A stretch of 64,000 nt of DNA from a virus: positions 41,564-105,563 of IMG/VR virus record IMGVR_UViG_3300021961_000042, one strand, 5' to 3'. The stretch's first letter is position 1, and each line of letters opens with the position of its first letter. Of this stretch, positions 26,909 to 63,283 are shown one piece after another. The translations under genes and the position numbers were made by a program. The notes under the pieces were generated by a model, which worked only from the letters and a program-made list of their open reading frames with translations, did not search any database and was not told where the DNA came from.

Positions 26909-27532
26909 ATGAAAAAAATAATAAGACTTACGGAAAGGGATTTAACAAGAATAGTTAGAAGAGTATTAAATGAAGAACCAATGACTAATCCTGAAGAAGA
27001 AATGCCAACATTACCAATGCAAGAAATACCTAGTAATATACCTAATAGTATACATTCAGATATCGATGATTTATATGAAAAAAGAGATGAATTGGCTAAA
27101 GAGTTTATGAAGTTGGAACGTAGAAGTGGTGGTTTAATGGGTAGATTGAAAAATAAAGTAGGAGATAAAATGGGTGAGTTGGAAGATAGCGCAAAAGAAG
27201 AAATTGAAGAAATTAGAGTAAATGTATTAATGATACTTGATGACATCAAAAGAAAATTACAATCTTTGAAGTTAAACGCTAAAAAAAGAAAAGAGGAAAG
27301 AATGAATAGAAGACATAAAGAAAGATTAGAAAGAGAAATTGACATATATGAAAAAAGCATTCAAGATATTAAAGATAAAAAAATAATAACTGCTAGAGAT
27401 TTACAAAACTTAAAAGATATTCTATCAATCAGTGGTATATACATAACCATGATCGGAAGTATAATTGCAAGATTTATATACATGCATAATGATGAATCAA
27501 ATTCAGAAATTAATCCTCATCTAAGAGACTAA
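26909..27532 (+). CDS. Coiled-coil protein with LTExDL-type leader and C-terminal hydrophobic segment
   Basis: MKKIIRLTERDLTRIVRRVLNEE; TATTTATA upstream; own terminator. Confidence 0.65.
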   Translation: MKKIIRLTERDLTRIVRRVLNEEPMTNPEEEMPTLPMQEIPSNIPNSIHSDIDDLYEKRDELAKEFMKLERRSGGLMGRLKNKVGDKMGELEDSAKEEIEEIRVNVLMILDDIKRKLQSLKLNAKKRKEERMNRRHKERLEREIDIYEKSIQDIKDKKIITARDLQNLKDILSISGIYITMIGSIIARFIYMHNDESNSEINPHLRD

Positions 27533-27542
27533 ATAATAACTT

Positions 27543-27570
27543 AACCCACCCCAAAAAGGTGGATTTTTTG
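27543..27570 (+). terminator. Intrinsic terminator (copy 1 of a repeated terminator-TTGACA module)
   Basis: CCACC-loop-GGTGG followed by T tract. Confidence 0.75.
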
Positions 27571-27608
27571 TTGTTTGACAATTCCTCCTTATTTCTTATC
27601 TTTTATGT

Positions 27609-28529
27609 ATGAAAGAAGAGTCACTATTAGTTGACCTTATCGAGAATATTTTTGGTGAACCTAAAAACGTAAATGAATATAGTGGTCAAATATCTGTTGA
27701 CTGTCCCGTTTGTTCCTACGAGATAAAAGGTTTATCAAAAACCGATGGTAAGGGAAATTTAGAAATAAATTATATTAATCATGTTTATAAATGTTGGGCG
27801 TGTTCTGAAACACACGACACTCACGGACATTTGGGTAGGTTAATTGAACAATTTGGGTCAAAAAAAGATAAAAAAACATATAATCTCATAAGACCCGATA
27901 AGGTAGAAAAAAAACAAAAAGAATATAAAAAACTTGAACTACCAAAAGAATATAAAAGATTTGAAGAAATACACCCCTTACATTTACCAAGAAAAGAGGC
28001 TTGGAACTATCTAAAAAAAAGAGGAATAACTCAAGAAACAATAGATAAGTATAAAATCGGTTTATGTATTGAAGGTGAGTATGCTGGTCGTATTATTGTC
28101 CCATCATTTAATAAAAAAGGTGAATTAAATTTTTTTGTTTCAAGATCATGGAATCCAAGAGCGAAGTTAAAATACAAAAACCCTGAAGCGGCTAAAGACT
28201 TTCTTATTTTTAATGAAAGTTTAATTGATTGGAAAAAAGACATTTATTTAGTTGAAGGAGTATTTGACTCATTCTTTTTAGATAATTCAATAGCGTTACT
28301 TGGAAAGTATGTGAATGATAATTTATGGGAAAAATTATATGAAAAGGCAAAAAAAGATATAATAGTTTGTTTAGATGGTGACGCATTTAATGATGCTAAA
28401 AATATATATGACAAACTTAATGGAGGGACACTATATGGTAGAGTTAAATTAATGAAACTACCAAAAGATAAAGACGTTTGCGATCTTAGAGGTCAAATAA
28501 ACGAATATATGATACAAGAAAAAGAATGA
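27609..28529 (+). CDS. DNA primase (Zn finger + Toprim)
   Basis: CPVC...CWAC, GRIIVP, LVEGVFD, LDGDA, KDVCD. Confidence 0.85.
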   Translation: MKEESLLVDLIENIFGEPKNVNEYSGQISVDCPVCSYEIKGLSKTDGKGNLEINYINHVYKCWACSETHDTHGHLGRLIEQFGSKKDKKTYNLIRPDKVEKKQKEYKKLELPKEYKRFEEIHPLHLPRKEAWNYLKKRGITQETIDKYKIGLCIEGEYAGRIIVPSFNKKGELNFFVSRSWNPRAKLKYKNPEAAKDFLIFNESLIDWKKDIYLVEGVFDSFFLDNSIALLGKYVNDNLWEKLYEKAKKDIIVCLDGDAFNDAKNIYDKLNGGTLYGRVKLMKLPKDKDVCDLRGQINEYMIQEKE

Positions 28530-29383
28530 ATTTAAAAGAAGTTGCAAAAGAAATAAGAGATATCTTATTAAAAAGACAAAATGAGCTACATTTAACTTTT
28601 GAAGAAGAGAAACATAGATACACCATGAAAGATGTTGATGGAACCATCAGAGATGATTTTCCATCAGTATCGAAAGTAATGAAGTTATTTTATGATGAAT
28701 TTCCTACCGAAGAGGCTGCAAGAAATAAGGCAAAAGGGGACCCATATATTATGCAAACACTACTTGCTGAATGGGACGAGGCTGGTAAAACATCAACAAA
28801 CATGGGAAGTCGTGTTCATTATGAGTTAGAAATTGAAACAATCAAAAGACACGGAATTAAAAAAGAAGTGAGACAACCACTTTATGAGTGTGATATGGAA
28901 ATGATCATGAAAGGTGATCGTATGATTAAGGCCGGATATAAGTTTTTGAAACTAATGGAAGAAAGAGGTGCGGTTTTATTAGATACTGAGATTGTTTTGG
29001 GAGATCCCGAACTTGGTTACACGGGACAACCCGATAAAGTTTGGTTAATGTTTAATAAACAAAGGACGGGTTTTGGAATAGTAATTACCGATTGGAAAAC
29101 TAACAAAAAGAAAAACATGGAAAGTAATGATTACACAAAACCCATGAGAGAACCATTCAAGTTTTTACCAAACACTGCTCTTGGTCACTATAACACACAA
29201 TTACCACTTTATGGTAAATTACTTTTAAAAATGTTAAAAGGTAGTAAATATGAAAACGTACCATTTTATGGTTGTGTTATTGTTCATTTAACTGAAGAAC
29301 AAGAATTTACTGAATATAGAGTTGAAAGAAAAGTAATTGACACCATTATGAACATGGATATTAAACAACGTTTGACAAAATAA
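28526..29383 (+). CDS. PD-(D/E)XK exonuclease
   Basis: PSVS, GSRVH, GQPDK, ITDWKTN, QLPLY. Confidence 0.75.
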   Translation: MNLKEVAKEIRDILLKRQNELHLTFEEEKHRYTMKDVDGTIRDDFPSVSKVMKLFYDEFPTEEAARNKAKGDPYIMQTLLAEWDEAGKTSTNMGSRVHYELEIETIKRHGIKKEVRQPLYECDMEMIMKGDRMIKAGYKFLKLMEERGAVLLDTEIVLGDPELGYTGQPDKVWLMFNKQRTGFGIVITDWKTNKKKNMESNDYTKPMREPFKFLPNTALGHYNTQLPLYGKLLLKMLKGSKYENVPFYGCVIVHLTEEQEFTEYRVERKVIDTIMNMDIKQRLTK

Positions 29384-29411
29384 ATAAAATAAAAAATTTT
29401 AAAAAAAAGAA

Positions 29412-30233
29412 ATGGAAGAAAATATGAAATTGATGAATGGAGATTGTTTAGAACTAATGAAAACAATTCCAAATAATTCGGTAGATTTAATTTGTTGTGA
29501 TTTACCATATGGTACTACTGATAGATATGGCGGTAAAAAAACTAAGTCTAATAGGTTTATGGAATGGGACAATATAATACCATTAGATAAATTATGGGTT
29601 GAGTATAAAAGGATCTTAAAACCAAACGGTGTCGTTTGTTTAACTGCGGACCAACCCTTTACCTCCCAATTAGTGATGTCCAACTTAGATTGGTTTAAAT
29701 ATGAATTTATTTGGAAAAAAAACATAACCACTGGATTTCTTTTGGCTAATTACAGACCTATGAAACAAACCGAGGACGTTCTGATTTTTTCAGAAGGAGG
29801 TGCTTCCGCGGCATCCGCAAAGGCGGGTAATAATATGACCTATAACCCCCAAGGGTTAGAGCCTAAAGTAGTTGTTCGAAAAAATGGTAAAAATAGACTC
29901 GGTAAATTTTTATCTAATGAAGAATTCTTAGGTAAAAATAATTCTTTACTTGGTGATAAAGAATATAGTCAAAAATTTACAAATTACCCTAAAGAGATTA
30001 TAGAATTTGGTATGGATATCGACACTATACACCCAACACAAAAACCAGTCTCTTTAATGGAGTATCTAATAAAAACCTACTCAAATGAAGGGGAAGTTGT
30101 TTTAGATAATGCAATGGGATCGGGGTCTACGGGAGTTGCGTGTATGAACACTAATCGTAAATTTATAGGTATTGAATTAAATGTGGACTATTTTAACTCC
30201 GCTAGTGAAAGAATTAAAAAACTAAAAAAATAA
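29412..30233 (+). CDS. Amino (N6A/N4C) DNA methyltransferase, beta class
   Basis: GDCLE, DLPY, HPTQKP, DNAMGSGSTG, FIGIE. Confidence 0.9.
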   Translation: MEENMKLMNGDCLELMKTIPNNSVDLICCDLPYGTTDRYGGKKTKSNRFMEWDNIIPLDKLWVEYKRILKPNGVVCLTADQPFTSQLVMSNLDWFKYEFIWKKNITTGFLLANYRPMKQTEDVLIFSEGGASAASAKAGNNMTYNPQGLEPKVVVRKNGKNRLGKFLSNEEFLGKNNSLLGDKEYSQKFTNYPKEIIEFGMDIDTIHPTQKPVSLMEYLIKTYSNEGEVVLDNAMGSGSTGVACMNTNRKFIGIELNVDYFNSASERIKKLKK

Positions 30234-30284
30234 TTTTTTAATTAAAAAAAATTATATATTTGTAAAATATAAAAAGATAGAAAG

Positions 30285-30767
30285 ATGAGAAAAGTAAAAT
30301 TAACTGAAAATGAAAAACAAAACTATGTTAAATATATCGGAGTACCTAAGTTTATGAGTGCGCAAGAAGAGTTTGAATGGGCGGATTCTCAGGAAAAAGA
30401 ATGTAATAAATGTCATAAACATTTACCACTTACTTGTTTTGGTTTTAGTACTTCAGGTAGATTTCCTTTTAATAAAGAAGGATTGAGATATCGTCGAGGA
30501 GAATGTTTAGAATGTGGATCAAAAATCTCTAATGGTAAAAAAAGGGCTAAAAAAATTTCTGAAAACTTAGGTAATAATATAGAAGCATCTGAAGAGAATA
30601 AATGTGAGCTTTGTGGTTGTAAACAAAAATTGGTATTTGACCACAATCATCAGACAGAAACTTTCAGAGGTTGGTTATGTGATCCTTGTAATAGATCTTT
30701 AGGTACTATTGAAAGTCGATTAGGGGCAAATTGGCTAAATTTAATTAAAGATTACGTTAATAAGTAA
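30285..30767 (+). CDS. His-Me finger endonuclease (EndoVII/Hpy99I-like)
   Basis: CNKC, CLEC, CELC, DHNH...RGWLCDPCNRSLG; TATATTTG at 30255. Confidence 0.8.
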   Translation: MRKVKLTENEKQNYVKYIGVPKFMSAQEEFEWADSQEKECNKCHKHLPLTCFGFSTSGRFPFNKEGLRYRRGECLECGSKISNGKKRAKKISENLGNNIEASEENKCELCGCKQKLVFDHNHQTETFRGWLCDPCNRSLGTIESRLGANWLNLIKDYVNK

Positions 30768-30903
30768 TGACGGACTCAACTATTTGACAAACTAAACAAA
30801 ATAAATTATATTATAGTATGAAACCAGAAATTACAATTGCTTGGTGGTATAATACCACTTGGGACACAAAGGAAAGTAAAATAAAAGTAAAATATAAAAC
30901 AAA

Positions 30904-31119
30904 ATGGAAGAAATCATCAAACCAAAAATCAATCTAAGAGATCAACCAACAGTTGAATGTGAAAAGTGTAAATCTGTTTACTTCAAAGAGGTCACAATAT
31001 TAAAAAAAGTATCAAAAATTTTAACAGGGAGTCCTGAAGATACGATCGTACCATTTCCAACTTACATGTGTAATGAGTGTGGAAACGTAAATGAAGATTT
31101 TAAATTATTTGATAAGTAA
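30904..31119 (+). CDS. Small zinc-ribbon protein
   Basis: CEKC...CNECG. Confidence 0.65.
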   Translation: MEEIIKPKINLRDQPTVECEKCKSVYFKEVTILKKVSKILTGSPEDTIVPFPTYMCNECGNVNEDFKLFDK

Positions 31120-31265
31120 TGGAAGTAGGTAAAATGACTATAAGCAAAGCGTACCCACACCTTAGAAGTATCGCACTTGCTTATGGATTAAAATTAAATA
31201 TTGCAAAAGATTTCAAATTCGCAAGAATTATTTTAGTAAATCTTTATAATCGTGAATTAATATAA
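31119..31265 (+). CDS. Hypothetical 48-aa protein (not in ORF track)
   Basis: TAATG-coupled; MEVGKMTISKAYPHLRSIALAYGLKLN... Confidence 0.5.
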   Translation: MEVGKMTISKAYPHLRSIALAYGLKLNIAKDFKFARIILVNLYNRELI

Positions 31266-31271
31266 ATAAAA

Positions 31272-31472
31272 ATGGGAAAAAAATTAGTATGGTTTGAATC
31301 TTACACAACAATTTGTAAGTATTCTACCGAGTTAACAGATGAAGAAGCAAAACTTTTTGAAGAAGATGAAGAAAAGTTTTATGAAGAAGTGGATTTTAGA
31401 GGTGACCAAGAATTAGAGTGGGACAAGATAGAAAACGAAGACGAATACGACTTTAGTGTAGAGGAGGACTAA
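31272..31472 (+). CDS. Acidic hypothetical protein
   Basis: 66 aa, operonic. Confidence 0.55.
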   Translation: MGKKLVWFESYTTICKYSTELTDEEAKLFEEDEEKFYEEVDFRGDQELEWDKIENEDEYDFSVEED

Positions 31473-31474
31473 AT

Positions 31475-31708
31475 ATGACACATAAAGAATTTTATATTTG
31501 GTTAGAAGGTTATCTTTATGGTAAACTAGAAAACAAACATATAGATATTTCACCAATTGTTGAAAAAATGGGACAAGTTAAAGATGAAATAAAATTTGGT
31601 ATTGCCGAACCGTACAGAGCACCATTACCAATAAACCCATTCCCAAATAATAATGATCCATATAAACCACCGTATGAAGTTTACTGCGGTGATAAACAAA
31701 AATTGTAA
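31475..31708 (+). CDS. Hypothetical protein
   Basis: 77 aa, F..WLEGY motif, operonic. Confidence 0.55.
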   Translation: MTHKEFYIWLEGYLYGKLENKHIDISPIVEKMGQVKDEIKFGIAEPYRAPLPINPFPNNNDPYKPPYEVYCGDKQKL

Positions 31709-31758
31709 TGTAAAATTTGTTTTTTTTTTGATTGATATATTTATTAATAAAAAACATT

Positions 31759-32388
31759 ATGAAAAATATTTTATCAAGTTTAAATGAATCTGAAAAAGTA
31801 AGGATTCTTGAAATGCACAAAAATGCAACAAGAAAAAATTATCTTAAAGAACAAGATAAAAACCCATTGGCATTTGCTACTGATCCTAACTATATGGATT
31901 ATTCTGGATTCAACAAGTCTAGTGAACCTGATGAGGAGGTTAAAAAATTATCAGAAGTTACATTATCCGCTTGGTTACCATTTGATGCGGCAAAACAAAG
32001 AGCGTCAAAAAAGGGTGGAGATATATTAGTATACTTCTATAACGATGGTTGTCATTATTGCGAAAATTTTACAAAAAATATAATGTCAAACGAAACGATA
32101 AGAAAAAAAATAGTTGAAAATAATTTAACTCTATGTAAAATAGTCATGTGTGTAGAGAAAGGTAAAGAAAAAGTGAATTGGCAAGGAAAAGAAATTACTT
32201 ACACTACTTGTGACGATAGTCAAAGGGAAGTTTGGGAACGTTTTGAAGATCAAGTCACTGGTGTTCCTAGTATGGTAATTGTAGATAGTAGTGGAGATAA
32301 AGTTAAGGCTGAATCTACAATAGCAGGTGACCCAAGAATTGCAACCAATGCTCAAGCTATGGCGTTATCACTGATGGATAAAATATAA
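31759..32388 (+). CDS. Thioredoxin-like protein with N-terminal leader
   Basis: LVYFYNDGCHYC and VTGVPSMVIVD; leader MKNILSSLNESEKVRILEMH...YLKEQ; TATTTATT at 31738. Confidence 0.7.
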   Translation: MKNILSSLNESEKVRILEMHKNATRKNYLKEQDKNPLAFATDPNYMDYSGFNKSSEPDEEVKKLSEVTLSAWLPFDAAKQRASKKGGDILVYFYNDGCHYCENFTKNIMSNETIRKKIVENNLTLCKIVMCVEKGKEKVNWQGKEITYTTCDDSQREVWERFEDQVTGVPSMVIVDSSGDKVKAESTIAGDPRIATNAQAMALSLMDKI

Positions 32389-32418
32389 AATAGTTAAAAA
32401 TTTATAATAGTTGTTTCA

Positions 32419-32446
32419 AACCCACCCCAAAAAGGTGGGTTTTTTG
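32419..32446 (+). terminator. Intrinsic terminator (copy 2 of the repeated module)
   Basis: AACCCACC-loop-GGTGGGTT plus T tract. Confidence 0.8.
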
Positions 32447-32485
32447 TTAATTGACATTTTAATCAAATTTGACTATATTTAGTCT

Positions 32486-33265: not shown

Positions 33266-33312
33266 TTACTATTATTCACACTTTTTAATTTATTGAGATA
33301 TTTATATTATAT

Positions 33313-33474
33313 ATGGGAAGATTGAAAATAAAAGATGAAGATAAAAAAACTAAAGTGTCTGTTGCACTTGATCCTGAATTATTAAAATTTTATCGGTCAT
33401 TACATATTAATTTATCTTCTTTGGTAAATAAACTTCTTAAAGATTATAAAGATGAAAGATACAAAAACTTGTAA
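33313..33474 (+). CDS. Small ribbon-helix-helix-like protein (not in ORF track)
   Basis: MGRLKIKDEDKKTKVSVALDPELLKFYRSLHINLSSLVNKLLKDY; TATTTATA at 33299. Confidence 0.55.
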   Translation: MGRLKIKDEDKKTKVSVALDPELLKFYRSLHINLSSLVNKLLKDYKDERYKNL

Positions 33475-39283: not shown

Positions 39284-39352
39284 ACAAAAAAAAGTTCTTC
39301 TTGTCAGAATACATTAAGAACAACCACAGTCAGAATACTGTGGTTTTTTTTT
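39284..39352 (+). ncRNA. Candidate small RNA with two CAGAAU-loop hairpins, the second being a terminator
   Basis: Promoter immediately upstream, no ORF; GTCAGAATAC at 39303 and 39329; AACCACAGT/ACTGTGGTT stem plus T tract. Confidence 0.55.
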
Positions 39353-39746
39353 AAACGAAAATTTGGAGTTGTCCTTTACTTACGGTAAACCCTTCTTTTT
39401 TCATTACTGTTATTATTATCAAATCCCAGTGATTTATATAATTTTTTTTTGGCTCAATAACTATATTAAGTTGATCTCCTTTTAACCTACTTACAATAAA
39501 TCTTTTACCATTTCTGATTTTACCTTCAATAATGTTATAAACTATATCATCTTTTGCGTCCTCTAATAATTTTACAATATTTAAATCGTAAATTTTATTT
39601 CCCGATCCATGTCTCCATTTTCTGTCATTGGTATGACCCCATTCATCGTGGTAAAGATCAAAATCAAAAGTCACATCATTACTAATTTCATGAAATTTTT
39701 GTTCTTGTAATAAAGTTTTTTTAATTATGTTATTTAAACCTATCAT
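39351..39746 (-). CDS. Hypothetical protein with leader
   Basis: MIGLNNIIKKTLLQEQ; TATTTATT upstream on the minus strand. Confidence 0.65.
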   Translation of the reverse strand: MIGLNNIIKKTLLQEQKFHEISNDVTFDFDLYHDEWGHTNDRKWRHGSGNKIYDLNIVKLLEDAKDDIVYNIIEGKIRNGKRFIVSRLKGDQLNIVIEPKKNYINHWDLIIITVMKKEGFTVSKGQLQIFV

Positions 39747-39801
39747 CTTAATAAATATGATATTCTTTATTATAAGTATTTATTAACTATAATAATATAA
39801 T

Positions 39802-40932: not shown

Positions 40933-41503
40933 ACCTTTGGGTTCATCTAAAAACAAAAAACAAATAATTCTTTGTGAAACCAAAAGGAATGTAAAAAATT
41001 ATATTAACTCTTTAAAATATAGATACAACGGAGAAAATAAAAACCTACCAAATTTTATCATATCTAGAGATGGTGAAATTTATAAAATAATGGAACCATT
41101 ATCTTATGCTAATTATATGAACGATTCTGTTTTAGATAAAAAATCTATTATAATATGTATGGAAAATTTGGGTTGGTTAGAAAGAAAACCACTTAGTTCT
41201 ATATACATAAATTGGATTGGTGATATTTATAAAAAAGAAGCGTTTGAAAAAAGATGGAGGGATAGAGTTTTTTGGCAACCATACGACGAATATAAACAAA
41301 TTGAAAGCTTAAAAAAACTTTTAAAAAATTTGTGTGATGAGTATAAAATACCAAAAATTTGTCCTGAATCTAATGTTAGACAAGAAGGTGTAGAGAACTT
41401 TTCAGGTATTATATCTAAAAGTTCTTATGATTTCAGGTCAAAAGATTTAAACCCATCTTTTAACTTTAAACATTTGAAAAAATTTTTAGAAAATGATGAA
41501 TGA
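40901..41503 (+). CDS. Amidase_2 (N-acetylmuramoyl-L-alanine amidase)-fold protein, probably degenerate
   Basis: PNFIISRDGEIY, SIIICMENLG, QIESLKKLL, KDLNPSFNF; Zn-ligand His residues absent. Confidence 0.55.
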   Translation: MVDLSELTEFKPLGSSKNKKQIILCETKRNVKNYINSLKYRYNGENKNLPNFIISRDGEIYKIMEPLSYANYMNDSVLDKKSIIICMENLGWLERKPLSSIYINWIGDIYKKEAFEKRWRDRVFWQPYDEYKQIESLKKLLKNLCDEYKIPKICPESNVRQEGVENFSGIISKSSYDFRSKDLNPSFNFKHLKKFLENDE

Positions 41504-48849: not shown

Positions 48850-48895
48850 AATATTTTTCTTATATTTGTGATATTTATTAATAAAAACTTTAATT

Positions 48896-50272
48896 ATGGC
48901 TATTAGATTTACGAGTATTTTAAGAGATTTAATTGTTGAGAGCTCAAGATTCCAAGTACTATTTGACAAATACGTTAAACCAAATAAAGAAACAAGAAAA
49001 GGTATAATGCCTTTTCATGTGTTATTTGAAATAATTGCCGCAGACCCAACATCAAGAGTTCCTGAAGGAATGGAAGCGGTTAATGCAAAACCAGAAGACA
49101 TGGAAAAAGTAAAAATTGGAAAATATACCCAATGGATACTTAAAAATTATGTAACACCAAAATTCGAATTAAGTAGTGGTATTACGGATCCTAATAGCCC
49201 CGCGGTTAAACAAGCAATTAAAGAATACCAAGCATTATTTTTAGAGGATCTTTATAAAGTTACAGGTGACTTAATGAAGTTTGAAAGATTCAAAAATAGA
49301 TTACCCCAAGAATATAGAGATATTAATAAATTAACACCCGAAACACTTTACGATCAAGTTAAAGATTTCAGTTTAGAAAAAACTAAGGCGACCGCTGACG
49401 AGAAAAAAGAGGCATCAACGTCATACCAACATCCAGGAGCTGAAGAAGTTAAAAGATTTGGTGAATGGACTGTTGTTAAAATTTCAAATACAGGACAAAT
49501 AGGTAAAGACGCGGCATGTTTTTATGGTGGATATTATTTAGAACCACAAAAAGGTGAAACAAGATGGTGTACATCATCGCCAGGTTTAACATGGTTTGAT
49601 AGATACATTAAAGATGGTCCTTTATATGTTGTTATCCCTAATTCACCACGTAAATTTACAGGAAGTATGGAAGTTGGCGAAAAAACAGGTCTTCCAGCAT
49701 TAAGATATCAATTTCACTTCCCATCTAATCAATTTATGGACCCTGCGGATAGAAATATTGACTTGGTTAAATTTTTACAAGATAGTGAAGAAGGTTTAAG
49801 AGAATACTTTAAACCTCAATTCATGAAAGGTTTGTCTCAAAATAACGGTGAAAAAGTATCAGTTAACTATCCGGGTGATTCGGCATCTAAATTCATCGCA
49901 CTTTATGGTTTTGAAGAGTTCTTTGATACATTACCTGAAAATATTAAAAGATTGGAATTTACACACAAAGGAGGAGGTGAATCGTTTAATTTACCATTAC
50001 CTGAAAGAATTGGAGATTTCAAACAACTAAGTGCTTTACACCTCGTTGGTTGTGTTTCTAAAATACCTGATAGTATTTGTAATTTAAAAGAATTGAAGTT
50101 CTTATCATTACCTGATAATCCAAACTTACAACCTTTACCGGCATGTTTGGCTGAATTACCAAAATTATCAATTGTTAATATTAAAGGTAGTACTGGTCAA
50201 AACGTAGTACCTGAAGCATTAAAACAGAGAGCAGAAAGAGATAATTCATTCTTTATTTTTGACACAAAGTAA
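48896..50272 (+). CDS. Leader-bearing protein with C-terminal leucine-rich repeats
   Basis: MAIRFTSILRDLIVES; TRWCTS...YQFHF..QFMD domain; LPERIGDFKQLSALHL/IPDSICNLKELKFLSL LRRs. Confidence 0.75.
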   Translation: MAIRFTSILRDLIVESSRFQVLFDKYVKPNKETRKGIMPFHVLFEIIAADPTSRVPEGMEAVNAKPEDMEKVKIGKYTQWILKNYVTPKFELSSGITDPNSPAVKQAIKEYQALFLEDLYKVTGDLMKFERFKNRLPQEYRDINKLTPETLYDQVKDFSLEKTKATADEKKEASTSYQHPGAEEVKRFGEWTVVKISNTGQIGKDAACFYGGYYLEPQKGETRWCTSSPGLTWFDRYIKDGPLYVVIPNSPRKFTGSMEVGEKTGLPALRYQFHFPSNQFMDPADRNIDLVKFLQDSEEGLREYFKPQFMKGLSQNNGEKVSVNYPGDSASKFIALYGFEEFFDTLPENIKRLEFTHKGGGESFNLPLPERIGDFKQLSALHLVGCVSKIPDSICNLKELKFLSLPDNPNLQPLPACLAELPKLSIVNIKGSTGQNVVPEALKQRAERDNSFFIFDTK

Positions 50273-54041: not shown

Positions 54042-54126
54042 GACTAATATTTTTATAGGTTTATTTTATATATAAATATTTATAATGTATGATTATTCAT
54101 TTGTAAACATAAACTATTTATAAAAT

Positions 54127-55311
54127 ATGAGTTTAAATTCCTTAATTAAAAAAATAATAAAAGAAGAAACCGAAGAGTGGGTTGACGTTAGTCCTGAAGA
54201 ATATAAAGAACTTTTGGATTATGTTAATGGTGATGGTTCTATTATTAAAAGACTTCCTGATTATGCTGGTAAAAAAATTAGAATTACCGGTGAATTAGAT
54301 CTTAGAGGAAAAGAAAAAGTCACAAATATAGATAGTATTGATTTAGTACAAGGTGATTTAGACATCAGTTATACTAAAATTCCATTTTTTGATAAAAATA
54401 AAGTAAGAGGTAGGTTAGATTATTGGGGTTCTGAAATGCAAAGATTAGAAAAACAAAAAATATACGAAGAAAGAATTGCATATCAAAACGAATTAAGAGA
54501 AGATGGTGCTTGGAATGTTGAAAATGATGATAAAGAATCAAATGAAACTGAAGCAATTTTTTATTATCTTGAAGAAGGTGGGATTGTACAAGAAGGTGAA
54601 GATAAATATTTTTTAGTTAATACCAAATACAAACACTATGGCGATTCAAGTGTGTATATGTGGTTAGGATCAAAAAACTTTGAAAGTGAATATGTTGTTT
54701 ATGAAGGAGAAGATAATTTACATGAAGCTGCAAAAGAAAATTTAGAATCACTAATTGATGATGTTGGTTTTGATGCCTTTAATCAATACGTTTGGGAAAA
54801 CCATATTGATGAAAGATACGTGAGAGACTACCTTTATGAGGACTATAGTGAATACGTTAGACAAAGTCCCGAAGATTGGAATATAAAAAGAGAATTAACA
54901 AATCAACAAAAACAATATTTAGAAATTCACCAAGCAAATATTGATAGGTTAAATCAAAAACTTGAAGAAGGTGGTCTTACTGATGAAGAAGTTGAAGAAA
55001 TTGAAAACGACATTTACGACTACGAACAATTAATGGAAGACATTAAAGAAAATCCAGAAGGTGATTACGATGAAGAATCAATCGAAGAAGCTATAGAAAA
55101 CATGGTTGACGACAATGTTGATAATATTTTTGACCTTTTAAGAGATAGAGGTCTTGATAATAGTGCGCTTTTAGATTTTGTTGATGTAGATGCCGCTATT
55201 GAATACGTAATTAGAAGTGATGGTTACGGACACACGTTAAATAGTTATGACGGAACAGAAGACTCATATAACATCAACGGAGAAGATTATTATGTTATGA
55301 GAATGAACTAA
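54127..55311 (+). CDS. Highly acidic leader-bearing protein
   Basis: MSLNSLIKKIIKEE; D/E-rich; TATTTATA at 54115. Confidence 0.7.
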   Translation: MSLNSLIKKIIKEETEEWVDVSPEEYKELLDYVNGDGSIIKRLPDYAGKKIRITGELDLRGKEKVTNIDSIDLVQGDLDISYTKIPFFDKNKVRGRLDYWGSEMQRLEKQKIYEERIAYQNELREDGAWNVENDDKESNETEAIFYYLEEGGIVQEGEDKYFLVNTKYKHYGDSSVYMWLGSKNFESEYVVYEGEDNLHEAAKENLESLIDDVGFDAFNQYVWENHIDERYVRDYLYEDYSEYVRQSPEDWNIKRELTNQQKQYLEIHQANIDRLNQKLEEGGLTDEEVEEIENDIYDYEQLMEDIKENPEGDYDEESIEEAIENMVDDNVDNIFDLLRDRGLDNSALLDFVDVDAAIEYVIRSDGYGHTLNSYDGTEDSYNINGEDYYVMRMN

Positions 55312-56331: not shown

Positions 56332-56545
56332 AGAACAAGTAAATCACCCTGATCATTATGGGGGTGAAAATAACCTTTATGAAGCAATCAAGGTTATTGA
56401 TGCTTGGGATCTTGGATTTAGTTTGGGAAATACCGTTAAGTATATCTCAAGAGCTGGTAAAAAAAATAAAGAAAAGGAGTTGGAGGATCTAAAGAAGGCT
56501 TTGTGGTATTTACAACATCATATTGATACGTTAGAGAAAAAATGA
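56324..56545 (+). CDS. DUF3310-like protein
   Basis: VNHPDHY...GNTVKYISRAGKK...EDLKKALWYL. Confidence 0.8.
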   Translation: MSKEQVNHPDHYGGENNLYEAIKVIDAWDLGFSLGNTVKYISRAGKKNKEKELEDLKKALWYLQHHIDTLEKK

Positions 56546-58037: not shown

Positions 58038-58050
58038 TGTTGGTTTTTTT
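58027..58050 (+). terminator. Intrinsic terminator
   Basis: ACCAACA-GTAA-TGTTGGT plus T tract. Confidence 0.75.
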
Positions 58051-58073
58051 GTTTTAGTTCATATTTATTTAAT

Positions 58074-59888
58074 ATGAAAAAACTACTTAAAGAATCCGGT
58101 ATAAGGGACATAAAACAAATTGCCAAAAGATATAAAAAGGCTAAAATTTATTTTCACCAAGACTTAGATGGTGTAACAACCGCTTTGGCTATGAAAAACT
58201 ACCTTGAACAAAATGGGATCAATGTAGTTGATGCTGAGGTTATACAATACGGTGCTAAAGAATTTGCTATTAAAAAACCTGAAGGTGAAGGTGACGTGAT
58301 GCCGGTATTGGTTGATTTTGCTCACGGAAAACCGATGTTTGTTATCCATACCGATCACCACGATAGTCAAGCCGGTGTTGAGGGAGATACTGCAACAAGT
58401 TTTAGACACGCAAGATCTAATGTCGAAACAATATCACAGATATTATCACCAAAAGAAATTTTTACCGCAGACGACATATTATTAATCTCAACAGTTGACT
58501 CAGCAAACTTTGTTGCAAATAATATAACACCAGAAATGGTTATGAACTACCTTTTCAAATATGATAAAAATGAGTCTTTGAAAAGAAATAAAATGTTAAT
58601 GGGGCTTGTTGTTAATAAATTACTTTTAGCATATAAAGGAAAACCAAATTTTTTAGAAGAAATTGTTTTAAATGCAAAACCATCCCTTTTAAGTATTCTT
58701 AATTTTATAAAAAAAGTGGCATTAGAAAAAGGGTACGCAACCCCTGAAATGATGACAAAAAATACTGAAGATTATGTTCAAAGTAGAAAAGAATCTGGAG
58801 TTGAAAGAACAGGTAGCGTATTATCTCAATACGGTTTTGGTTCGGCAACAAAACCAGGATCATATGATAGATACACACCATTTAGAAATAATCCTGATGC
58901 CGACTTCTTAGTTACAGGAATGCCTTTTGGTAGTGTTCAAGCATCTTGTAACCCATTCAAAGAAAGTAGATCACTCAAAGGTATAAATTTAGGTGAAATA
59001 AAGGATCAAGTTTTATTAGACTTCAAACCAGAGTTAGAAAAACAAATATTAACATTTAGAACAATAAAAAGAATTGCAGAAAAAGAAGCAACAAAAGAAT
59101 CTGTAGGATTCACCTCAAAAGATATGATGGCCCTTTATGGTTCAATGCCATCTTACGATCCAAACACACAATCAATAAATGGTTATGATTTTTTAGTTGC
59201 AAACTCAGGAGGACATAAATGTATTACTAATATTTCAGGAATTAATTTTATGTATAGTGGTTACGACAAACCATACACTAAAGATTTACCAAAAGAAGCT
59301 ATACCTATTGCTTTTTATGAAGGAGATAATAACTTTATTAAAGATATTAAACAAAAACTTTTAAGATTTAGAAAGTTATCTGAAAAACAAATACAGGCGG
59401 CAATTAGTGGAATGAAAAGAGAGGGGATCAATACAGACTCATTAATGAATGTAAAACAAGAAAGAGGTTTTTTAGATTTAGTAAAAGAAATGAAAGACAG
59501 GTTTGTTGATATTTTAAATCAAAAAATGAATTCAGAAAATGAAAGTATTAATGAAAGTTATGATAAAAAAGATATTGCAACATTATTAAAAAAACACGTT
59601 AAAAAAGAAAAAACATTAAATGAAAACGATTGGAATTATATATTAAAAAAAGTTAATGGTGTTATTGATAATAGAGGACAGTGGGAACATCCCGGAAAAT
59701 GTACAATGATTGAAAGTAATACTATTACCATGAAAAATGTTGATTACCCTTTAGTTGGAATAGACAATACAGGACAAATGAAATTAATGTTACCAAACAT
59801 GAATTATGAATTTCCCGGAGAAAAAGTATTTGAAATACCTTGCATGGGTAAATATAAAAATCTTGCAATAGAACTATTAAGAATATGA
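58074..59888 (+). CDS. DHH-family phosphoesterase-like protein with leader and appended C-terminal module
   Basis: HQDLDG, VDFA, TDHHD, SGGH. Confidence 0.7.
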   Translation: MKKLLKESGIRDIKQIAKRYKKAKIYFHQDLDGVTTALAMKNYLEQNGINVVDAEVIQYGAKEFAIKKPEGEGDVMPVLVDFAHGKPMFVIHTDHHDSQAGVEGDTATSFRHARSNVETISQILSPKEIFTADDILLISTVDSANFVANNITPEMVMNYLFKYDKNESLKRNKMLMGLVVNKLLLAYKGKPNFLEEIVLNAKPSLLSILNFIKKVALEKGYATPEMMTKNTEDYVQSRKESGVERTGSVLSQYGFGSATKPGSYDRYTPFRNNPDADFLVTGMPFGSVQASCNPFKESRSLKGINLGEIKDQVLLDFKPELEKQILTFRTIKRIAEKEATKESVGFTSKDMMALYGSMPSYDPNTQSINGYDFLVANSGGHKCITNISGINFMYSGYDKPYTKDLPKEAIPIAFYEGDNNFIKDIKQKLLRFRKLSEKQIQAAISGMKREGINTDSLMNVKQERGFLDLVKEMKDRFVDILNQKMNSENESINESYDKKDIATLLKKHVKKEKTLNENDWNYILKKVNGVIDNRGQWEHPGKCTMIESNTITMKNVDYPLVGIDNTGQMKLMLPNMNYEFPGEKVFEIPCMGKYKNLAIELLRI

Positions 59889-60376
59889 ATCTTTACGAGA
59901 ATATATTAAGAATCAATCAATTAATAAAAGAAAACTCTACTATTGAAAACTTTATACAAAAAGGAGAGTTAAATATTGTGCCAGGTGTTAACATTACATT
60001 AGTAAAGGAGAAAGATGAAATAATTGGAGAAACAAATTTAATTGATATGGATAATGCGTATTTGAACGATTACTACTTGAATAATTTTCTTAAAAATGAT
60101 TCTAATAACATGAATGAAAGTAATGGCGACATTGTTATAAATAATTCTAATACTTTATATGTTCATGATGTGAATGTTGATGAAAGTTTTAGAGGAATGG
60201 GTTATGGTAAAAAAGTTATGACTAAATGCCATGAAGTTGCAAAAAAAATGGGTTATGACAACACTTGTTTAATAGTACAAAAAGAAAACACACCGGCGGT
60301 TTCTTTATATGAAGGTTTAGGGTATCTAACAATCAAAGAAGACAATTTAAGAAAATTTATGTTGAAAAAATTATAA
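59885..60376 (+). CDS. GNAT acetyltransferase with leader
   Basis: VNVDESFRGMGYG, NTPAVSLYEGLGY; MNLYENILRINQLIKE. Confidence 0.8.
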   Translation: MNLYENILRINQLIKENSTIENFIQKGELNIVPGVNITLVKEKDEIIGETNLIDMDNAYLNDYYLNNFLKNDSNNMNESNGDIVINNSNTLYVHDVNVDESFRGMGYGKKVMTKCHEVAKKMGYDNTCLIVQKENTPAVSLYEGLGYLTIKEDNLRKFMLKKL

Positions 60377-60531
60377 AATAAAAGTTTTTTTAATTTTACA
60401 ATGTATTTATAAAATACCTCTGACAAAATTCATTATTTTTTAATAAAAACAGTTGACAGTTTAGAATAAATGTTTTAGATTTGTTAAACAATTAGGAAAC
60501 GTCCTAATAATAATTTGAAAAATTGAAAAAA

Positions 60532-60675
60532 ATGAGTGAAGATCAAGTAACAGTAAACGAAATTTACGCTTACGTTAATGACAAAGGTCAGAAAGTGTAT
60601 ACACCTAATCTAGAGTTTGCTAAGATTATGAGTGATAAATACGGAACCGATAAGGTGTACGTAGAAAAAAACTAA
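60532..60675 (+). CDS. 47-aa hypothetical protein (not in ORF track)
   Basis: MSEDQVTVNEIYAYVNDKGQKVYTPNLEFAKIMSDKYGTDKVYVEKN; A-rich start. Confidence 0.55.
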   Translation: MSEDQVTVNEIYAYVNDKGQKVYTPNLEFAKIMSDKYGTDKVYVEKN

Positions 60676-60730
60676 AAAAAAGTTCACAAGGTACTTGTCT
60701 AATTAAAAAAAAAGACTTAACTTTGTAAAA

Positions 60731-61700
60731 GATTCGAAACCACAGGAGATGAAAGATACTCGTTGTCGAATTAGAGAAAACGTTCTTTGAAAAACTAAAA
60801 CCGACAGAAATAGTCGTCACAATTATGAAAAGCGAATTAACACCTCCCTTTCTTTAAGTGTGAAACTAAATTAAGTCATTGGGCCGTGTATGGTCCATTA
60901 AAATAAACCACGAAAGTGGGATAAAGTGAACCTAACGTGTAATAGGTTTGCGTCTTGGTGAGTCTTCGGACTTGTTGAGGTCGAGTACACAAGCGGGATA
61001 CCGTTTAACCTTTAGTACCGAGGGCAACGCTGTAGGGAAAGTGGTTAGATGAACTGGCAATGTGGGTTGTCAGTTTGAGGTGGGAACACCAAGAGGAATA
61101 ACCCGTAGGAACGATGCAAAAAATAAGGTTATCCAACTTTATCATTGCGTCCTCCATTATGATAGGGTACTTAAAACCGAAAGGTATGTTCGTGTACAGG
61201 TGGTGCTGTTACCAACCCTAATGATTCCTTACCAAAGGAATTGTTTTGAAGTAGTCTTGAAATATGGAAATGGGGACATTTCACGGAGTAGTTGAGTATC
61301 GACTCGTTCAAAAGATGGGTTGGCTCGGGTGACGGACCACTACTTCGACAATCCACAACACAAATACTTTATGGAAAGTAATGATTCTATTATTAACTAC
61401 AGAAAGGAAAAGTGTCCGTCAGGTTTGGATGAAAGGTGACTACATAGTAATGAGCCGTTCATTGCACACAAGGATCCCAAGTCTGAGTGTAATTATCCGA
61501 AAAACCTTTAGTCCCGCAAGGACGAACTGGGGAGGCATCCTCGGAAAGAGTCAAGTAAGGTGAGAGTAATCCAAACCTCAAGGAGTGATTCACCTAAATA
61601 ATCGTCACTGAGGAATACTTCTCAAAAGGAAGTGGATAAGAGTAGAATAAATAATGACTCTAAAGGTTCTCAATAACAGGTGTAATCTCAGCCTTTTTTT
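60731..61700 (+). ncRNA. Large structured noncoding RNA, GOLLD-like candidate
   Basis: Promoter CTTG-N20-TAACTTTG (60694-60725); ~1 kb without a credible ORF; visibly G+C-richer; GNRA/UUCG hairpins and long-range helices; ends in T tract. Confidence 0.75.
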
Positions 61701-61729
61701 AAAACATGATTACTGGTAAAAAAAATTGA

Positions 61730-61761
61730 ATGGATAGTAAAAAATTATTATCCATTTTTTT
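61730..61761 (+). terminator. Intrinsic terminator
   Basis: ATGGATAGTAA/TTATTATCCAT stem plus T tract. Confidence 0.65.
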
Positions 61762-61793
61762 GTGCATTAAAATTTTTTGTATATCTTTGTATC

Positions 61794-62177
61794 ATGAAAG
61801 AAGGAAAGGCAATCAGAGACAAACAAATAAAGGCAATCAAAACGGTTTTGAAAGAATCAAATTTTGAATTAAAACAGTTAGATAACACCGCGTATTCTGA
61901 ACTTGATAAGGCGGTTGTAAAAATTGTTAATGTAAGAAAATATAAAAGCGGTTGGGGTAGTAGTTTTTTGTATGAAGTTGACGTGGTTGTTGATATGAGA
62001 ATAGACGGTAGTTATTTTTACTCAAACAGATACTGTGAAAGATTTAAAGTAAGATGTAATGGTTATTATAGATACAAAATTGAAAAAGTAATAGCAAATG
62101 AGATTAAATATTTTGGTGTAGACACTCAATATGATAATGTATGTGTTAAAAAAATAACTTACAAACAAATTGTTTAA
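61794..62177 (+). CDS. Hypothetical protein
   Basis: 127 aa with TTTG-N19-TATCTTTG promoter. Confidence 0.65.
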   Translation: MKEGKAIRDKQIKAIKTVLKESNFELKQLDNTAYSELDKAVVKIVNVRKYKSGWGSSFLYEVDVVVDMRIDGSYFYSNRYCERFKVRCNGYYRYKIEKVIANEIKYFGVDTQYDNVCVKKITYKQIV

Positions 62178-62215
62178 TTCAAAATTTATTCTTAACTTTA
62201 CAATAAATAAAAAAT

Positions 62216-62482
62216 ATGGCAACACATAAACACGTAATGATAGTTCATCCTAAGTTCGGAGAAGTTTTAAATGAGACTTTCATGGATGAGGTACAGTTCA
62301 AAATATTTTTAAATATGGTCCACTCTTCAATAGAGTTGAACCAAAACCTCTCAACTTTCAACGGTAAGGACTTCTTAGTTCACATACCAAACTCAATACT
62401 TAAAGACTCTTTGGTTATCGGTAAGACAAAAGAGGTGTCTATGGCCGAGGTGGTACTTGCAAAATCTAAATTGGAGGGGTAG
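62216..62482 (+). CDS. Hypothetical protein
   Basis: 88 aa. Confidence 0.6.
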   Translation: MATHKHVMIVHPKFGEVLNETFMDEVQFKIFLNMVHSSIELNQNLSTFNGKDFLVHIPNSILKDSLVIGKTKEVSMAEVVLAKSKLEG

Positions 62483-62547
62483 TTTCTTTGTTAATCTTTA
62501 AAACAAAGTGGTGGCAGTTCGAACACATCTTGTGTCGACCCGAAAAT

Positions 62548-62573
62548 AGGTGAGGTAATACTCACCTTTTTTT
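62548..62573 (+). terminator. Intrinsic terminator
   Basis: AGGTGAG/CTCACCT stem plus T tract. Confidence 0.8.
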
Positions 62574-62595
62574 ATTCATTCATATATTTATTTAT

Positions 62596-62979
62596 ATGAA
62601 AATACAGTTAACGGAATCTGATTTAGTAATACTAATTAAAAAAATTATTTCTGAAACAAAAAACCAAACAATTTATGAGGATATGTATGGTTCCGTTGAG
62701 GATATTAATTTACTTAATGAGGCAGAATACCAAGGTAGAAAAGTACAACTTGGTAAAATAATGCAGGGAGACATTAAAAAATTTAAAGTATATGTAAAAA
62801 ATGACAAAGGAAAGGTTGTTAAAGTAAACTTTGGTTTTGGTGGTAAATCTGCTAAAGGTAAAAGAATGACAATCAAAAAAAACAACCCTGAAAGAAGAAA
62901 GTCATTTAGAGCAAGACATAATTGTGATAACCCTGGCCCAAGATGGAAACCAAGATATTGGGCTTGTAGAACATGGTAA
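62596..62979 (+). CDS. Leader-bearing basic protein
   Basis: MKIQLTESDLVILIKKIISE; VNFG...RRKSFRARHNCD...RYWAC. Confidence 0.7.
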   Translation: MKIQLTESDLVILIKKIISETKNQTIYEDMYGSVEDINLLNEAEYQGRKVQLGKIMQGDIKKFKVYVKNDKGKVVKVNFGFGGKSAKGKRMTIKKNNPERRKSFRARHNCDNPGPRWKPRYWACRTW

Positions 62980-62980
62980 T

Positions 62981-63283
62981 ATGGGAAAAATATTAATAAC
63001 AGAAAAACAGTTTAAAAAAATGGTCAGAGACCTTAAAGAACATGAAGACGATGGTGGTTCTTATATGGCAAAACAACAATTGTTTACAATTGCCACATTG
63101 GCGTATAAAATGTGGGAAATGATGGAAGATGGAGAACAACTTGAAGATTGGATGGAAACTAAAATTGCACAATCAGAACAGTCTGTCACATCAGTTGTTA
63201 AATCTTTTATGTATGATGAGGCTGAAGATAAAATCAAAGGTGCGAATGATATCGATTTTAACGATTTAATAATAGGTCGATAA
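62981..63283 (+). CDS. Leader-bearing hypothetical protein
   Basis: Start at ATG 62981: MGKILITEKQFKKMVRDLKE; MAKQQL...LEDWMETKI. Confidence 0.65.
   Translation: MGKILITEKQFKKMVRDLKEHEDDGGSYMAKQQLFTIATLAYKMWEMMEDGEQLEDWMETKIAQSEQSVTSVVKSFMYDEAEDKIKGANDIDFNDLIIGR

What the first reader, a model, noticed from the sequence alone, without database searches (positions are those of the whole stretch)
26909..63283. Shared amphipathic N-terminal leader ending in [LI]-x-E on unrelated proteins: candidate capsid cargo-targeting system
Seen: MKKIIRLTERDLTRIVRRVLNEE (26909), MKIQLTESDLVILIKKIISE (62596), MGKILITEKQFKKMVRDLKE (62981), MSLNSLIKKIIKEE (54127), MIGLNNIIKKTLLQE (39746 minus), MNLYENILRINQLIKE (59885), MAIRFTSILRDLIVE (48896), MKNILSSLNESEKVRILEMH..YLKE (31759), MKKLLKE (58074), plus weaker cases at 41493, 42787 and 43288. 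The leaders are fused to thioredoxin, GNAT, DHH, LRR, acidic and basic domains. The nine listed genes all have TATTTAT upstream or follow a gene that does. Known: T4 internal proteins carry an N-terminal capsid targeting sequence removed by gp21 after [LI]-x-E. Inference: a portable tag that packs diverse effectors into the head for injection.
Basis: partly seen in the sequence, partly recalled or inferred. Interest (0 to 1): 0.8.

Follow-up and report, generated by a model that had tools for sequence, protein, structure and literature searches.

The report
Clip-off head-loading tags, jumbo phage
This fragment of an uncultured ~300-kb T4-related phage puts a short, almost invariant N-terminal peptide on otherwise unrelated late proteins. 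The same peptide heads thousands of unrelated proteins in related viruses and most likely loads them into the phage head before being cut off, but no experiment has shown loading or cutting.

Summary
Six of the nine listed genes carry a portable tag: 26909, 62596, 62981, 54127, 39746(-) and 31759. 48896 is plausible, 59885 is unsupported, and 58074 is rejected.

There are two interchangeable tag types, plus truncated forms. Type 1 contains LTESDL and RIVRRVI-x-E. Type 2 contains ITE-x-EK..RIL-x-MH and YL-x-EQ.

- **Spread.** Type 1 heads 8,754 cluster representatives (50% identity) in public data. It sits at the first Met in 158 of 179 local cases, on at least 91 unrelated bodies. It is almost absent from 185,579 cellular genomes.
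- **Level of selection.** Synonymous codons vary freely, so selection acts on the peptide.
- **Protease.** The contig is 35% of a jumbo phage syntenic with complete 290-304 kb relatives. All six relatives that are at least 90% complete encode a T4 gp21-type head protease. The one read in full has a T4-ordered head module.
- **Cut site.** T4's capsid-protein cut site LTE|A aligns with INE|A in the relative, the same kind of site that ends the tag.
- **Expression.** Tagged genes share the TATTTAT upstream element with virion genes.

Best reading (about 0.55): a greatly expanded analogue of T4's capsid-targeting sequence. Packaging and cleavage are inferred, not shown. Earlier reports of this scan describe such tags in at least eight other genomes described as this kind of phage.

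The parts
26909..26977 (+). Type-1 tag (23 codons) of gene 26909-27532. The body is a coiled-coil protein with a hydrophobic C-terminal helix.
   Evidence: 46-50 bits against tag models built from other phages. It is the most conserved part of the protein among orthologues at 55-90% identity. The AF2 model is low confidence: helix 9-21, no regular structure 22-47, then long helices.
62596..62655 (+). Type-1 variant tag of gene 62596-62979.
   Evidence: 16-23 bits. The body (residues 45-127) matches the full length of phrog_7595, a 96-position profile. In orthologues LTES is kept but the terminal hydrophobic-x-E is not.
62981..63040 (+). Divergent type-1-like tag (I-T-E-x-Q-[LF] ... L-K-E) of gene 62981-63283.
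   Evidence: Not significant by model. Three orthologues keep the same tag pattern, followed by an indel-rich junction.
54127..54165 (+). Truncated type-1 tag (second half only) of gene 54127-55311.
   Evidence: 7.4 bits at the N-terminus. Relatives of the same protein carry a full tag.
39702..39746 (-). Probable truncated tag of gene 39351-39746.
   Evidence: An orthologue at 63% identity keeps L..II[KR]K..L.EQ at its start. Not significant by model.
31759..31851 (+). Type-2 tag (31 codons) of the thioredoxin-like gene 31759-32388.
   Evidence: 46.6 bits against the type-2 model. The thioredoxin domains are above the Pfam cut-off.
31852..31932 (+). Conserved post-tag module of about 27 residues in the same gene.
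   Evidence: Nearly identical in P0039, P0041 and P0047. Those proteins carry a type-1 tag and a C-terminal part that does not align with this gene's.
48896..48940 (+). Possible short tag of the LRR-like gene 48896-50272.
   Evidence: The only support is a similar start in the partial relative h400. Not significant by model.
59885..59932 (+). Claimed tag of the GNAT gene 59885-60376. Unsupported.
   Evidence: Leave-one-out score of -2.6 bits, against 51 equal or better hits per shuffled proteome. No relative was found.
58074..58094 (+). Claimed tag MKKLLKE of the DHH-like gene 58074-59888. Rejected.
   Evidence: The orthologue aligns from residue 2, and the weak DHH match begins at residue 25.
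26888..26894 (+). TATTTAT upstream element of gene 26909. The same element lies at 31738-31744, 48872-48878, 54115-54121, 58062-58068, 62585-62595 and, on the minus strand, 39751-39757.
   Evidence: Coordinates are.

Best explanation
The tags are capsid-targeting propeptides of a T4-related jumbo-phage lineage.

Inferred mechanism:
1. Tagged proteins are made late, together with virion proteins.
2. The amphipathic tag helix docks them onto a conserved partner in the prohead core or on the inner shell.
3. The gp21-type head protease then cuts after Glu at one or both conserved sites: L-T-E|S near the start, and hydrophobic-x-E| at the end.
4. This frees small, fast-evolving proteins inside the head, from where they could leave with the DNA.

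What is shown:
- The tag is modular, conserved, positioned at the N-terminus and confined to viruses.
- The protease is present in complete relatives; G003, the one read in full, has a T4-ordered head module.
- The capsid protein has a homologous cut-site pattern.
- The upstream element is shared with virion genes.

What is inferred: late timing, docking, cleavage, packaging and ejection.
For: **Portable tag.**
- A search with residues 1-40 of an orthologue found 1,109 clusters of 108-347 aa. The listed ones share only the first ~23 residues.
- A profile search of 1.84 billion representatives found 8,754 hits at E<=0.001 and 1,239 at E<=1e-10. Of the 143 newly fetched proteins among the best 150, 136 carry a tag within their first three residues.
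- In 77 viral loci, 158 distinct tagged proteins fall into 91 body families, 62 of them singletons.

**Selection on the peptide.** 40% of identical-residue codon pairs use different codons, and third-position identity is 0.62.

**Interchangeable types.** A type-2 tag and a type-1 tag precede the same post-tag module. Full and truncated tags occur on relatives of one protein.

**Cut-site pattern.** Position 22 is Glu in 109 of 111 tags, position 20 is I/V/L/M, and position 21 is free. Type 2 ends in the same way.

**Protease and head module.**
- Peptidase_S77 is above its cut-off in 6 of 6 tagged genomes that are at least 90% complete.
- G003 has the T4 gene order: portal, two small genes, protease, scaffold-like gene, capsid protein.
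- T4 gp23's L-T-E65|A site aligns with I-N-E|A in G003. The 65-residue propeptide and the L/I-x-E rule are taken from PMC5694885 and PMC9026906.

**Link to this contig.** It is syntenic with G003; 80 of 111 genes match.

**Shared upstream element.**
- TATTTAT precedes the sheath, tube, baseplate wedge and adaptor genes here.
- In G003 it precedes TerL, the protease and the scaffold-like gene, but only 1 of 9 replication genes.
- Tagged genes carry it in 5 of 5 cases here and 13 of 22 in G003, against 27% and 23% of other genes (Fisher p = 0.002 and 0.0005).

**Virus-only.** Two tiny MAG contigs among 185,579 species genomes hold it.

**Precedent.** T-even internal proteins are diverse and share only a capsid-targeting sequence (PMC3012670).
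Against: - No virion proteomics, N-terminal sequencing or structure exists for any member.
- No cultured phage carries the tag. The cultured relative Flavobacterium phage immuto (about 38% portal identity) has none.
- This contig itself lacks the head module and the protease, being only 35% complete.
- The tag is 2-3 times longer than T4's 10-residue sequence, far more conserved, and shows no sequence similarity to it.
- The residue after the terminal Glu is mostly Gln. The capsid-protein sites aligned have Ala there, and T4 gp22 is cut at a Glu-Ala bond (PMC9026906).
- Thr8 is nearly invariant, although the middle position of the T4 motif is free. The conservation therefore reflects more than a cut site.
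- Internal copies without a Met exist.
- In the 62596 family the terminal hydrophobic-x-E is lost in orthologues.
- TATTTAT also precedes two helicase genes, so 'late' is not proven.
- All tagged genomes belong to one lineage, so co-occurrence with the protease is not independent evidence.
Confidence: 0.55

Rival explanations
1. The tag is an uncleaved docking helix. It plugs interchangeable small proteins onto a conserved site on the virion, on the capsid surface, neck or tail. The particle would then display varied binding modules rather than carry internal cargo.
For: - The upstream element is shared with virion genes.
- The few recognisable bodies are binding-type modules: LysM, PG_binding_1, and weak LRR and EF-hand matches.
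- Internal copies could add avidity.
- Invariant residues beyond a cut site suggest a specific docking interface.
- An earlier report of this scan reached this reading for a different tag in an E. coli giant phage (e1-158929).
Against: - This reading gives no reason for both tag types and the truncated forms to end in hydrophobic-x-Glu followed by a flexible, indel-rich junction.
- Seven to sixteen type-1 tags per genome, plus other types, would compete for one site.
- Known virion adaptors are usually folded domains, not 23-residue helices (from general knowledge, not tested here).
Confidence: 0.15
2. The tag is a recognition sequence for a phage-encoded protein machine other than the head protease. 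One candidate is the ClpB/ClpA-like double AAA+ ATPase with its chaperone neighbours. That machine would unfold, hold or modify the tagged proteins.
For: - The gene family most often found within 10 kb of tagged genes is a ClpB/ClpA-like AAA+ protein (21 of 77 loci).
- An M42/M20-like peptidase (17 loci) and an FKBP (11 loci) are also common neighbours. G003 has an Hsp20-like gene beside its Clp-like gene (by its sequence only).
- Another widespread phage N-terminal tag in this scan turned out to be linked to a radical-SAM enzyme rather than the capsid (e1-127136).
Against: - The linkage is weak: 21 of 77 loci.
- It can be explained by tagged genes lying near the conserved block upstream of the head module; TerL and the portal are neighbours in about 10 loci.
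- No radical-SAM gene is present in 5 of 5 complete genomes.
- No precedent is known to me for such a tag for ClpB-type proteins.
- This reading does not explain the Glu-terminated ends.
Confidence: 0.1
3. The similarity is a by-product of composition or of some generic property. In an AT-rich genome, Lys/Ile/Leu/Glu-rich N-termini could look alike. Alternatively the helix could be a generic membrane-binding or self-associating amphipathic helix with no common partner.
For:
- The helix is strongly amphipathic, with a hydrophobic moment of 0.65.
- Gene 26909 also has a hydrophobic C-terminal helix.
Against: - The core tag reaches 46-60 bits and E values down to 1e-20 against 1.84 billion proteins.
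- Polar residues T8, E9, D11 and E22 are nearly invariant while synonymous sites drift.
- Mean hydrophobicity is low (-0.38) and there is no hydrophobic core region.
- The tag is virtually absent from cellular genomes.
Confidence: 0.05

Closest known systems
Capsid targeting sequence (CTS) of phage T4 internal proteins IPI, IPII and IPIII and of Alt, removed by prohead protease gp21 at L/I-x-E (Mullaney and Black 1996, as reviewed in PMC9026906 and PMC3012670)
   Same: - A short N-terminal peptide is the only thing shared by otherwise diverse small proteins.
- It ends in hydrophobic-x-Glu.
- Complete relatives encode a gp21-family (Peptidase_S77) protease; G003 shows the T4 order of head genes.
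- Tagged genes are scattered outside the head module, often in arrays.
   Different: - 23-32 residues rather than 10, with no sequence similarity.
- Near-invariant across a whole lineage.
- Two or more interchangeable types plus truncated forms.
- 7-16 type-1 copies per genome (plus other types) rather than about four tagged proteins.
- Internal copies occur.
- Two candidate cut sites per tag.
- Function is untested.
Long N-terminal propeptides of head and ejection proteins of phiKZ-like giant phages (phiKZ, 201phi2-1, SPN3US), cut by gp21-related proteases at S/A-x-E (PMC5694885, PMC9026906)
   Same: Giant phages with a gp21-related protease, many processed head proteins, and several cut sites within one propeptide.
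   Different: Those propeptides are mostly over 100 residues, are protein-specific and are not a shared portable sequence. The lineage here is T4-like in its portal, capsid protein and gene order, and the site pattern is I/L/V-x-E.
Cargo-loading peptides of encapsulins (from general knowledge, not tested here)
   Same: A short conserved peptide joined by a flexible linker directs unrelated cargo into an HK97-fold shell.
   Different: Those peptides are usually C-terminal, are not cleaved, and belong to bacterial and archaeal compartments rather than phage heads.

Membership tests
T4-type capsid targeting sequence / gp21-processed propeptide | A short N-terminal peptide shared by otherwise unrelated proteins | tested here: met
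   158 of 179 matches start at the first Met. There are 91 unrelated body families in 77 loci and 8,754 cluster representatives overall.
T4-type capsid targeting sequence / gp21-processed propeptide | The peptide ends in the protease motif L/I-x-Glu | tested here: met
   Glu at position 22 in 109 of 111 tags, I/V/L/M at position 20, position 21 free. A second conserved L-T-E lies at positions 7-9. Type 2 ends in YL-x-E.
T4-type capsid targeting sequence / gp21-processed propeptide | The phage encodes a gp21-family (Peptidase_S77) prohead protease and a T4-like prohead core | tested here: met
   Present in 6 of 6 tagged relatives that are at least 90% complete. The T4 gene order is seen in G003. 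The window's own contig is 35% complete and lacks the head module, so for this genome it rests on synteny.
T4-type capsid targeting sequence / gp21-processed propeptide | The protease of this lineage cuts at such sites | tested here: inconclusive
   The only evidence is by homology: T4 gp23's L-T-E|A site aligns with I-N-E|A in G003 and V-S-E|A in phage immuto. There is no biochemical evidence.
T4-type capsid targeting sequence / gp21-processed propeptide | Sequence relationship to the T4 CTS | tested here: not met
   The tag is 23-32 residues against 10 and has no evident similarity by eye (no alignment was run). No T4-like cultured phage matched the tag by tblastn. The claim is therefore 'works like', not 'member of'.
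T4-type capsid targeting sequence / gp21-processed propeptide | Tagged proteins are physically packaged in the head and trimmed | not testable with these tools
   This needs virion mass spectrometry or reporter packaging.
RiPP-like leader served by a radical-SAM/SPASM enzyme | A co-encoded radical-SAM enzyme | tested here: not met
   PF04055 is absent from 5 of 5 complete tagged genomes, while the control genomes all score. No such family appears among the neighbours.
Sec/Tat-type signal peptide or generic membrane anchor | A hydrophobic core region, and use by cellular proteins | tested here: not met
   Mean hydrophobicity is -0.38 with many charged residues. The tag occurs in 2 tiny MAG contigs among 185,579 species genomes.
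AKAP-type amphipathic helix docking to an RIIa domain (a resemblance recalled from memory) | An RIIa-type docking domain encoded by the phage | tested here: not met
   PF02197 finds nothing in 5 complete genomes.

The most novel reading that the evidence does not exclude
The tag is a lineage-wide address code. Any protein that carries it is loaded into the prohead, released by the head protease and delivered with the DNA. If so, each of these jumbo phages injects dozens of fast-evolving, mostly unknown proteins, and the injected proteome of uncultured phages could be read from sequence alone. That would cover thousands of cargo families. Internal tag copies would then mark polyproteins that are cut into several cargoes inside the head.
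Probability: 0.4. Interest if true: 0.85.

Novelty: new variant of a known kind. Interest (0 to 1): 0.7.

Why it matters
If the tag is a head-loading signal, it gives a sequence-only way to list the packaged, and probably injected, proteins of a large uncultured phage lineage. That list would be thousands of families of small unknown proteins, and such proteins are where phages tend to keep counter-defence and host-takeover functions. It would also show that T4's three-protein trick can scale to a sizeable share of a jumbo phage's genes: about 7% of called genes in G003. Finally it would supply a compact, strongly conserved peptide for packaging foreign proteins in phage heads. If the reading is wrong, a 23-residue peptide kept almost unchanged on thousands of unrelated viral proteins still needs an explanation.

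Tried and rejected
- **Within-genome model only.** It was underpowered and circular, so I replaced it with models built from other phages.
- **'Leader swap on orthologous cargo' for gene 31759.** I first read P0039, P0041 and P0047 as orthologues. The alignment shows that only a ~27-residue post-tag module is shared, and I corrected the reading.
- **DNA- or RNA-level element, or recombination cassette.** Rejected because synonymous sites vary freely.
- **Known family.** Pfam and PHROGs find nothing for the tag itself. No paper in the library holds the string LTESDL.
- **Cultured phages.** There was no tblastn match to the tag and no megablast match to the fibre region. Flavobacterium phage immuto has none.
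- **Radical-SAM partner.** Absent.
- **RIIa-type docking domain.** Absent.
- **A single constant neighbouring gene.** None was found; the best is a ClpB/ClpA-like ATPase in 21 of 77 loci.
- **ADP-ribosyltransferase cargo in gene 62596.** The SidE_mART match is below the cut-off, and the body is phrog_7595, of unknown function.
- **AF2 model of gene 26909.** Low confidence (pLDDT 55), so I used it for secondary structure only.
Full report
**What the DNA is.** The window is the last 64 kb of a 105,563-bp, 30% G+C viral contig. IMG/VR and CheckV rate the contig linear and 35% complete. I called 111 genes. Of these, 80 have a counterpart in a 304,365-bp, 100%-complete IMG/VR genome, here called G003, in largely the same order. 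The contig is therefore about a third of a jumbo phage of roughly 300 kb. It carries tail sheath, tube, baseplate-wedge and head-tail adaptor genes. G003's portal is of the T4 gp20 type. Its closest cultured relatives by portal are Microcystis phage Mel-JY01 and Flavobacterium phage immuto, both at about 38% identity. A Bacteroidota host is likely but not shown.

**Checking the observation.** All quoted N-termini exist at the stated coordinates. In leave-one-out tests only 26909, 62596 and 54127 supported one another. I therefore looked outside the genome.
- Orthologues of 26909 at 55-90% identity keep the first 22 residues almost unchanged, and an indel-rich linker follows.
- A database search with residues 1-40 of one orthologue returned 1,109 protein clusters of 108-347 aa. 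The 120 listed share only the first ~23 residues; the sequence after that differs completely.
- The consensus is MKRIIRLTESDLTRIVRRVI-x-EQ, which I call type 1.

**How widespread and how positional.**
- A scan of IMG/VR for the tag hit more than 595 stretches. I fetched 77 loci.
- They hold 179 matches of at least 12 bits.
- Tagged proteins are small, with a median of 138 residues.
- The 158 distinct tagged proteins fall into 91 body families by BLASTP, and 62 of these are singletons.
- Only 3 of 90 representatives match any Pfam family: thioredoxin, LysM and PG_binding_1. PHROGs adds nothing more.
- A profile search of 1.84 billion 50%-identity representatives gave 8,754 hits at E<=0.001 and 1,239 at E<=1e-10.
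- Near-complete jumbo genomes carry 7-16 type-1 tags each by this search; a local scan of G003 gave 16.
- Among 185,579 cellular species genomes, only two MAG contigs of 3-4 kb hold the tag.
- No cultured phage holds it.

**At what level selection acts.** Among 109 distinct coding versions of the tag, Leu, Arg, Thr, Ser and Val codons vary freely. Forty per cent of identical-residue codon pairs differ, and third-position identity is 0.62. The constraint is therefore on the peptide, not on DNA or RNA.

**More than one tag.**
- A second N-terminal module, type 2, contains I-[ST]-E-x-E-K, then R-I-L-x-M-H, and ends Y-L-x-E-Q. It recurs in the same loci and in G003.
- In this genome, type 2 heads the thioredoxin-like gene at 31759 (46.6 bits) and a 360-aa gene upstream of the window (24 bits).
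- Types 1 and 2 share a start of the form M-K-basic-hydrophobic-hydrophobic-x-[LI]-[TS]-E, and both end in hydrophobic-x-E.
- The segment after the tag in 31759 is nearly identical to that of three database proteins. Those proteins carry a type-1 tag and a C-terminal part that does not align with that of 31759. The modules are therefore shuffled.
- Truncated tags also exist. 54127 keeps only the second half, while relatives of the same protein have the full tag.
- 62981 and 39746(-) carry divergent forms that their orthologues conserve.
- 48896 is plausible only.
- 59885 has no support.
- 58074 is part of the enzyme body.
- The tag is not strictly N-terminal. Among the top database hits, 44 of 143 proteins have a second, internal copy, and most of the 22 I inspected lack a Met.

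**Structure.** The tag is strongly amphipathic (hydrophobic moment 0.65, mean hydrophobicity -0.38). A low-confidence AF2 model of gene 26909 puts a helix at residues 9-21, an unstructured stretch at 22-47, then long helices.

**Link to the head protease.**
- The contig itself has no Peptidase_S77 gene.
- All six tagged genomes that are at least 90% complete have one above the Pfam cut-off. So do two of three fragments.
- In G003 the gene order is TerL, portal, two small genes, protease, a scaffold-like acidic protein, then the capsid protein. From the portal onward this is the order of T4 genes 20-67-68-21-22-23.
- T4 gp21 cuts after Glu in L/I-x-E, and T4's tags are 10-20-residue N-terminal propeptides (PMC9026906, PMC5694885).
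- Aligning the capsid proteins places T4 gp23's site L-T-E65|A opposite I-N-E|A in G003 and V-S-E|A in phage immuto. The lineage has probably kept the same specificity.
- The tag offers two such sites: L-T-E|S at residues 7-9 and hydrophobic-x-E at 20-22. In G003, proteins beside the head genes also start with short forms of the tag.

**Expression signal.**
- ATATTTAT lies within 50 nt upstream of 22 of 111 genes here, against 0.9 expected. In G003 it is 73 of 415, against 4.5 expected.
- TATTTAT precedes the sheath, tube, baseplate-wedge and adaptor genes here.
- In G003 it precedes TerL, the protease and the scaffold-like gene, among 9 of 15 virion-module genes examined. Only 1 of 9 replication-type genes has it.
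- Tagged genes have it in 5 of 5 cases here and 13 of 22 in G003, against 27% and 23% of other genes (Fisher p = 0.002 and 0.0005).
- Two helicase genes also have it, so 'late' remains an inference.

**Rivals.**
- A co-encoded modifying enzyme, as found for another phage tag in this scan, is not supported. No radical-SAM gene is present, and no neighbouring family is constant.
- The commonest neighbour is a ClpB/ClpA-like AAA+ ATPase in 21 of 77 loci, with a peptidase and an FKBP also frequent. I keep a chaperone-tag reading at about 0.1.
- An uncleaved virion-docking helix remains possible, at about 0.15.
- Composition or generic membrane binding is excluded for the core tags.

**Verdict.**
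I put it at about 0.55.
- It works like the T4 capsid targeting sequence but is not a sequence relative of it.
- I rate it a new variant of a known kind.
- Earlier reports of this scan describe such tags in at least eight other genomes described as this kind of phage. I checked their main claims independently here.

Noticed in passing
window 26888-26894, 31738-31744, 54115-54121 and others; genome-wide: TATTTAT (often ATATTTAT) sits 4-35 nt upstream of start codons. It is about 20 times enriched there and precedes most virion operons. It looks like this lineage's counterpart of the T4 late promoter TATAAATA, and would give very short 5' leaders.
   Followed up: partly
L089:2555-4612 (G003) and L006:5602-7818: Relatives encode a ClpB/ClpA-like double AAA+ ATPase. 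An M42/M20-like peptidase, a KTSC-domain protein and (by its sequence only) an Hsp20-like gene lie beside it, just upstream of the head module. An FKBP is also common near tagged genes. This is the most frequent neighbourhood of tagged genes (21 of 77 loci).
   Followed up: partly
L099:3051-3767 (genome 3051-3767, upstream of the window): This 238-aa gene, next to the head-tail adaptor, appears to be related to Fe/Mn superoxide dismutase. That is based on its sequence and on its relatives, not on a scan of the gene itself. It has a tag-like N-terminal extension and a TATTTAT element 4 nt upstream. In relatives the SOD part is fused behind a longer N-terminal region (L023:6644-8758; in G003 h322 that region holds an HExxH motif).
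   Followed up: no
window 31852-31932: A ~27-residue module follows the tag in the thioredoxin-like gene. It is almost identical in database proteins that have a different tag type and a different C-terminal part. It may be a second portable element.
   Followed up: partly
P0145-P0170 (database proteins); G003 h257 (L090:1671-2969): Many tagged proteins carry a second, internal copy of the tag, usually without a Met. This suggests two-body proteins that could be cut apart.
   Followed up: partly
L100:8358-9053 (genome 28358-29053): A gene after the 2,157-aa giant protein starts with a different conserved helix that ends in Y-I-x-N-E-Q, followed by a Pro/Ala-rich linker. The G003 orthologue keeps it. 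This may be a third tag type.
   Followed up: no
window 60694-61700: This stretch has no convincing ORF in my gene calls. I did not examine it.
   Followed up: no
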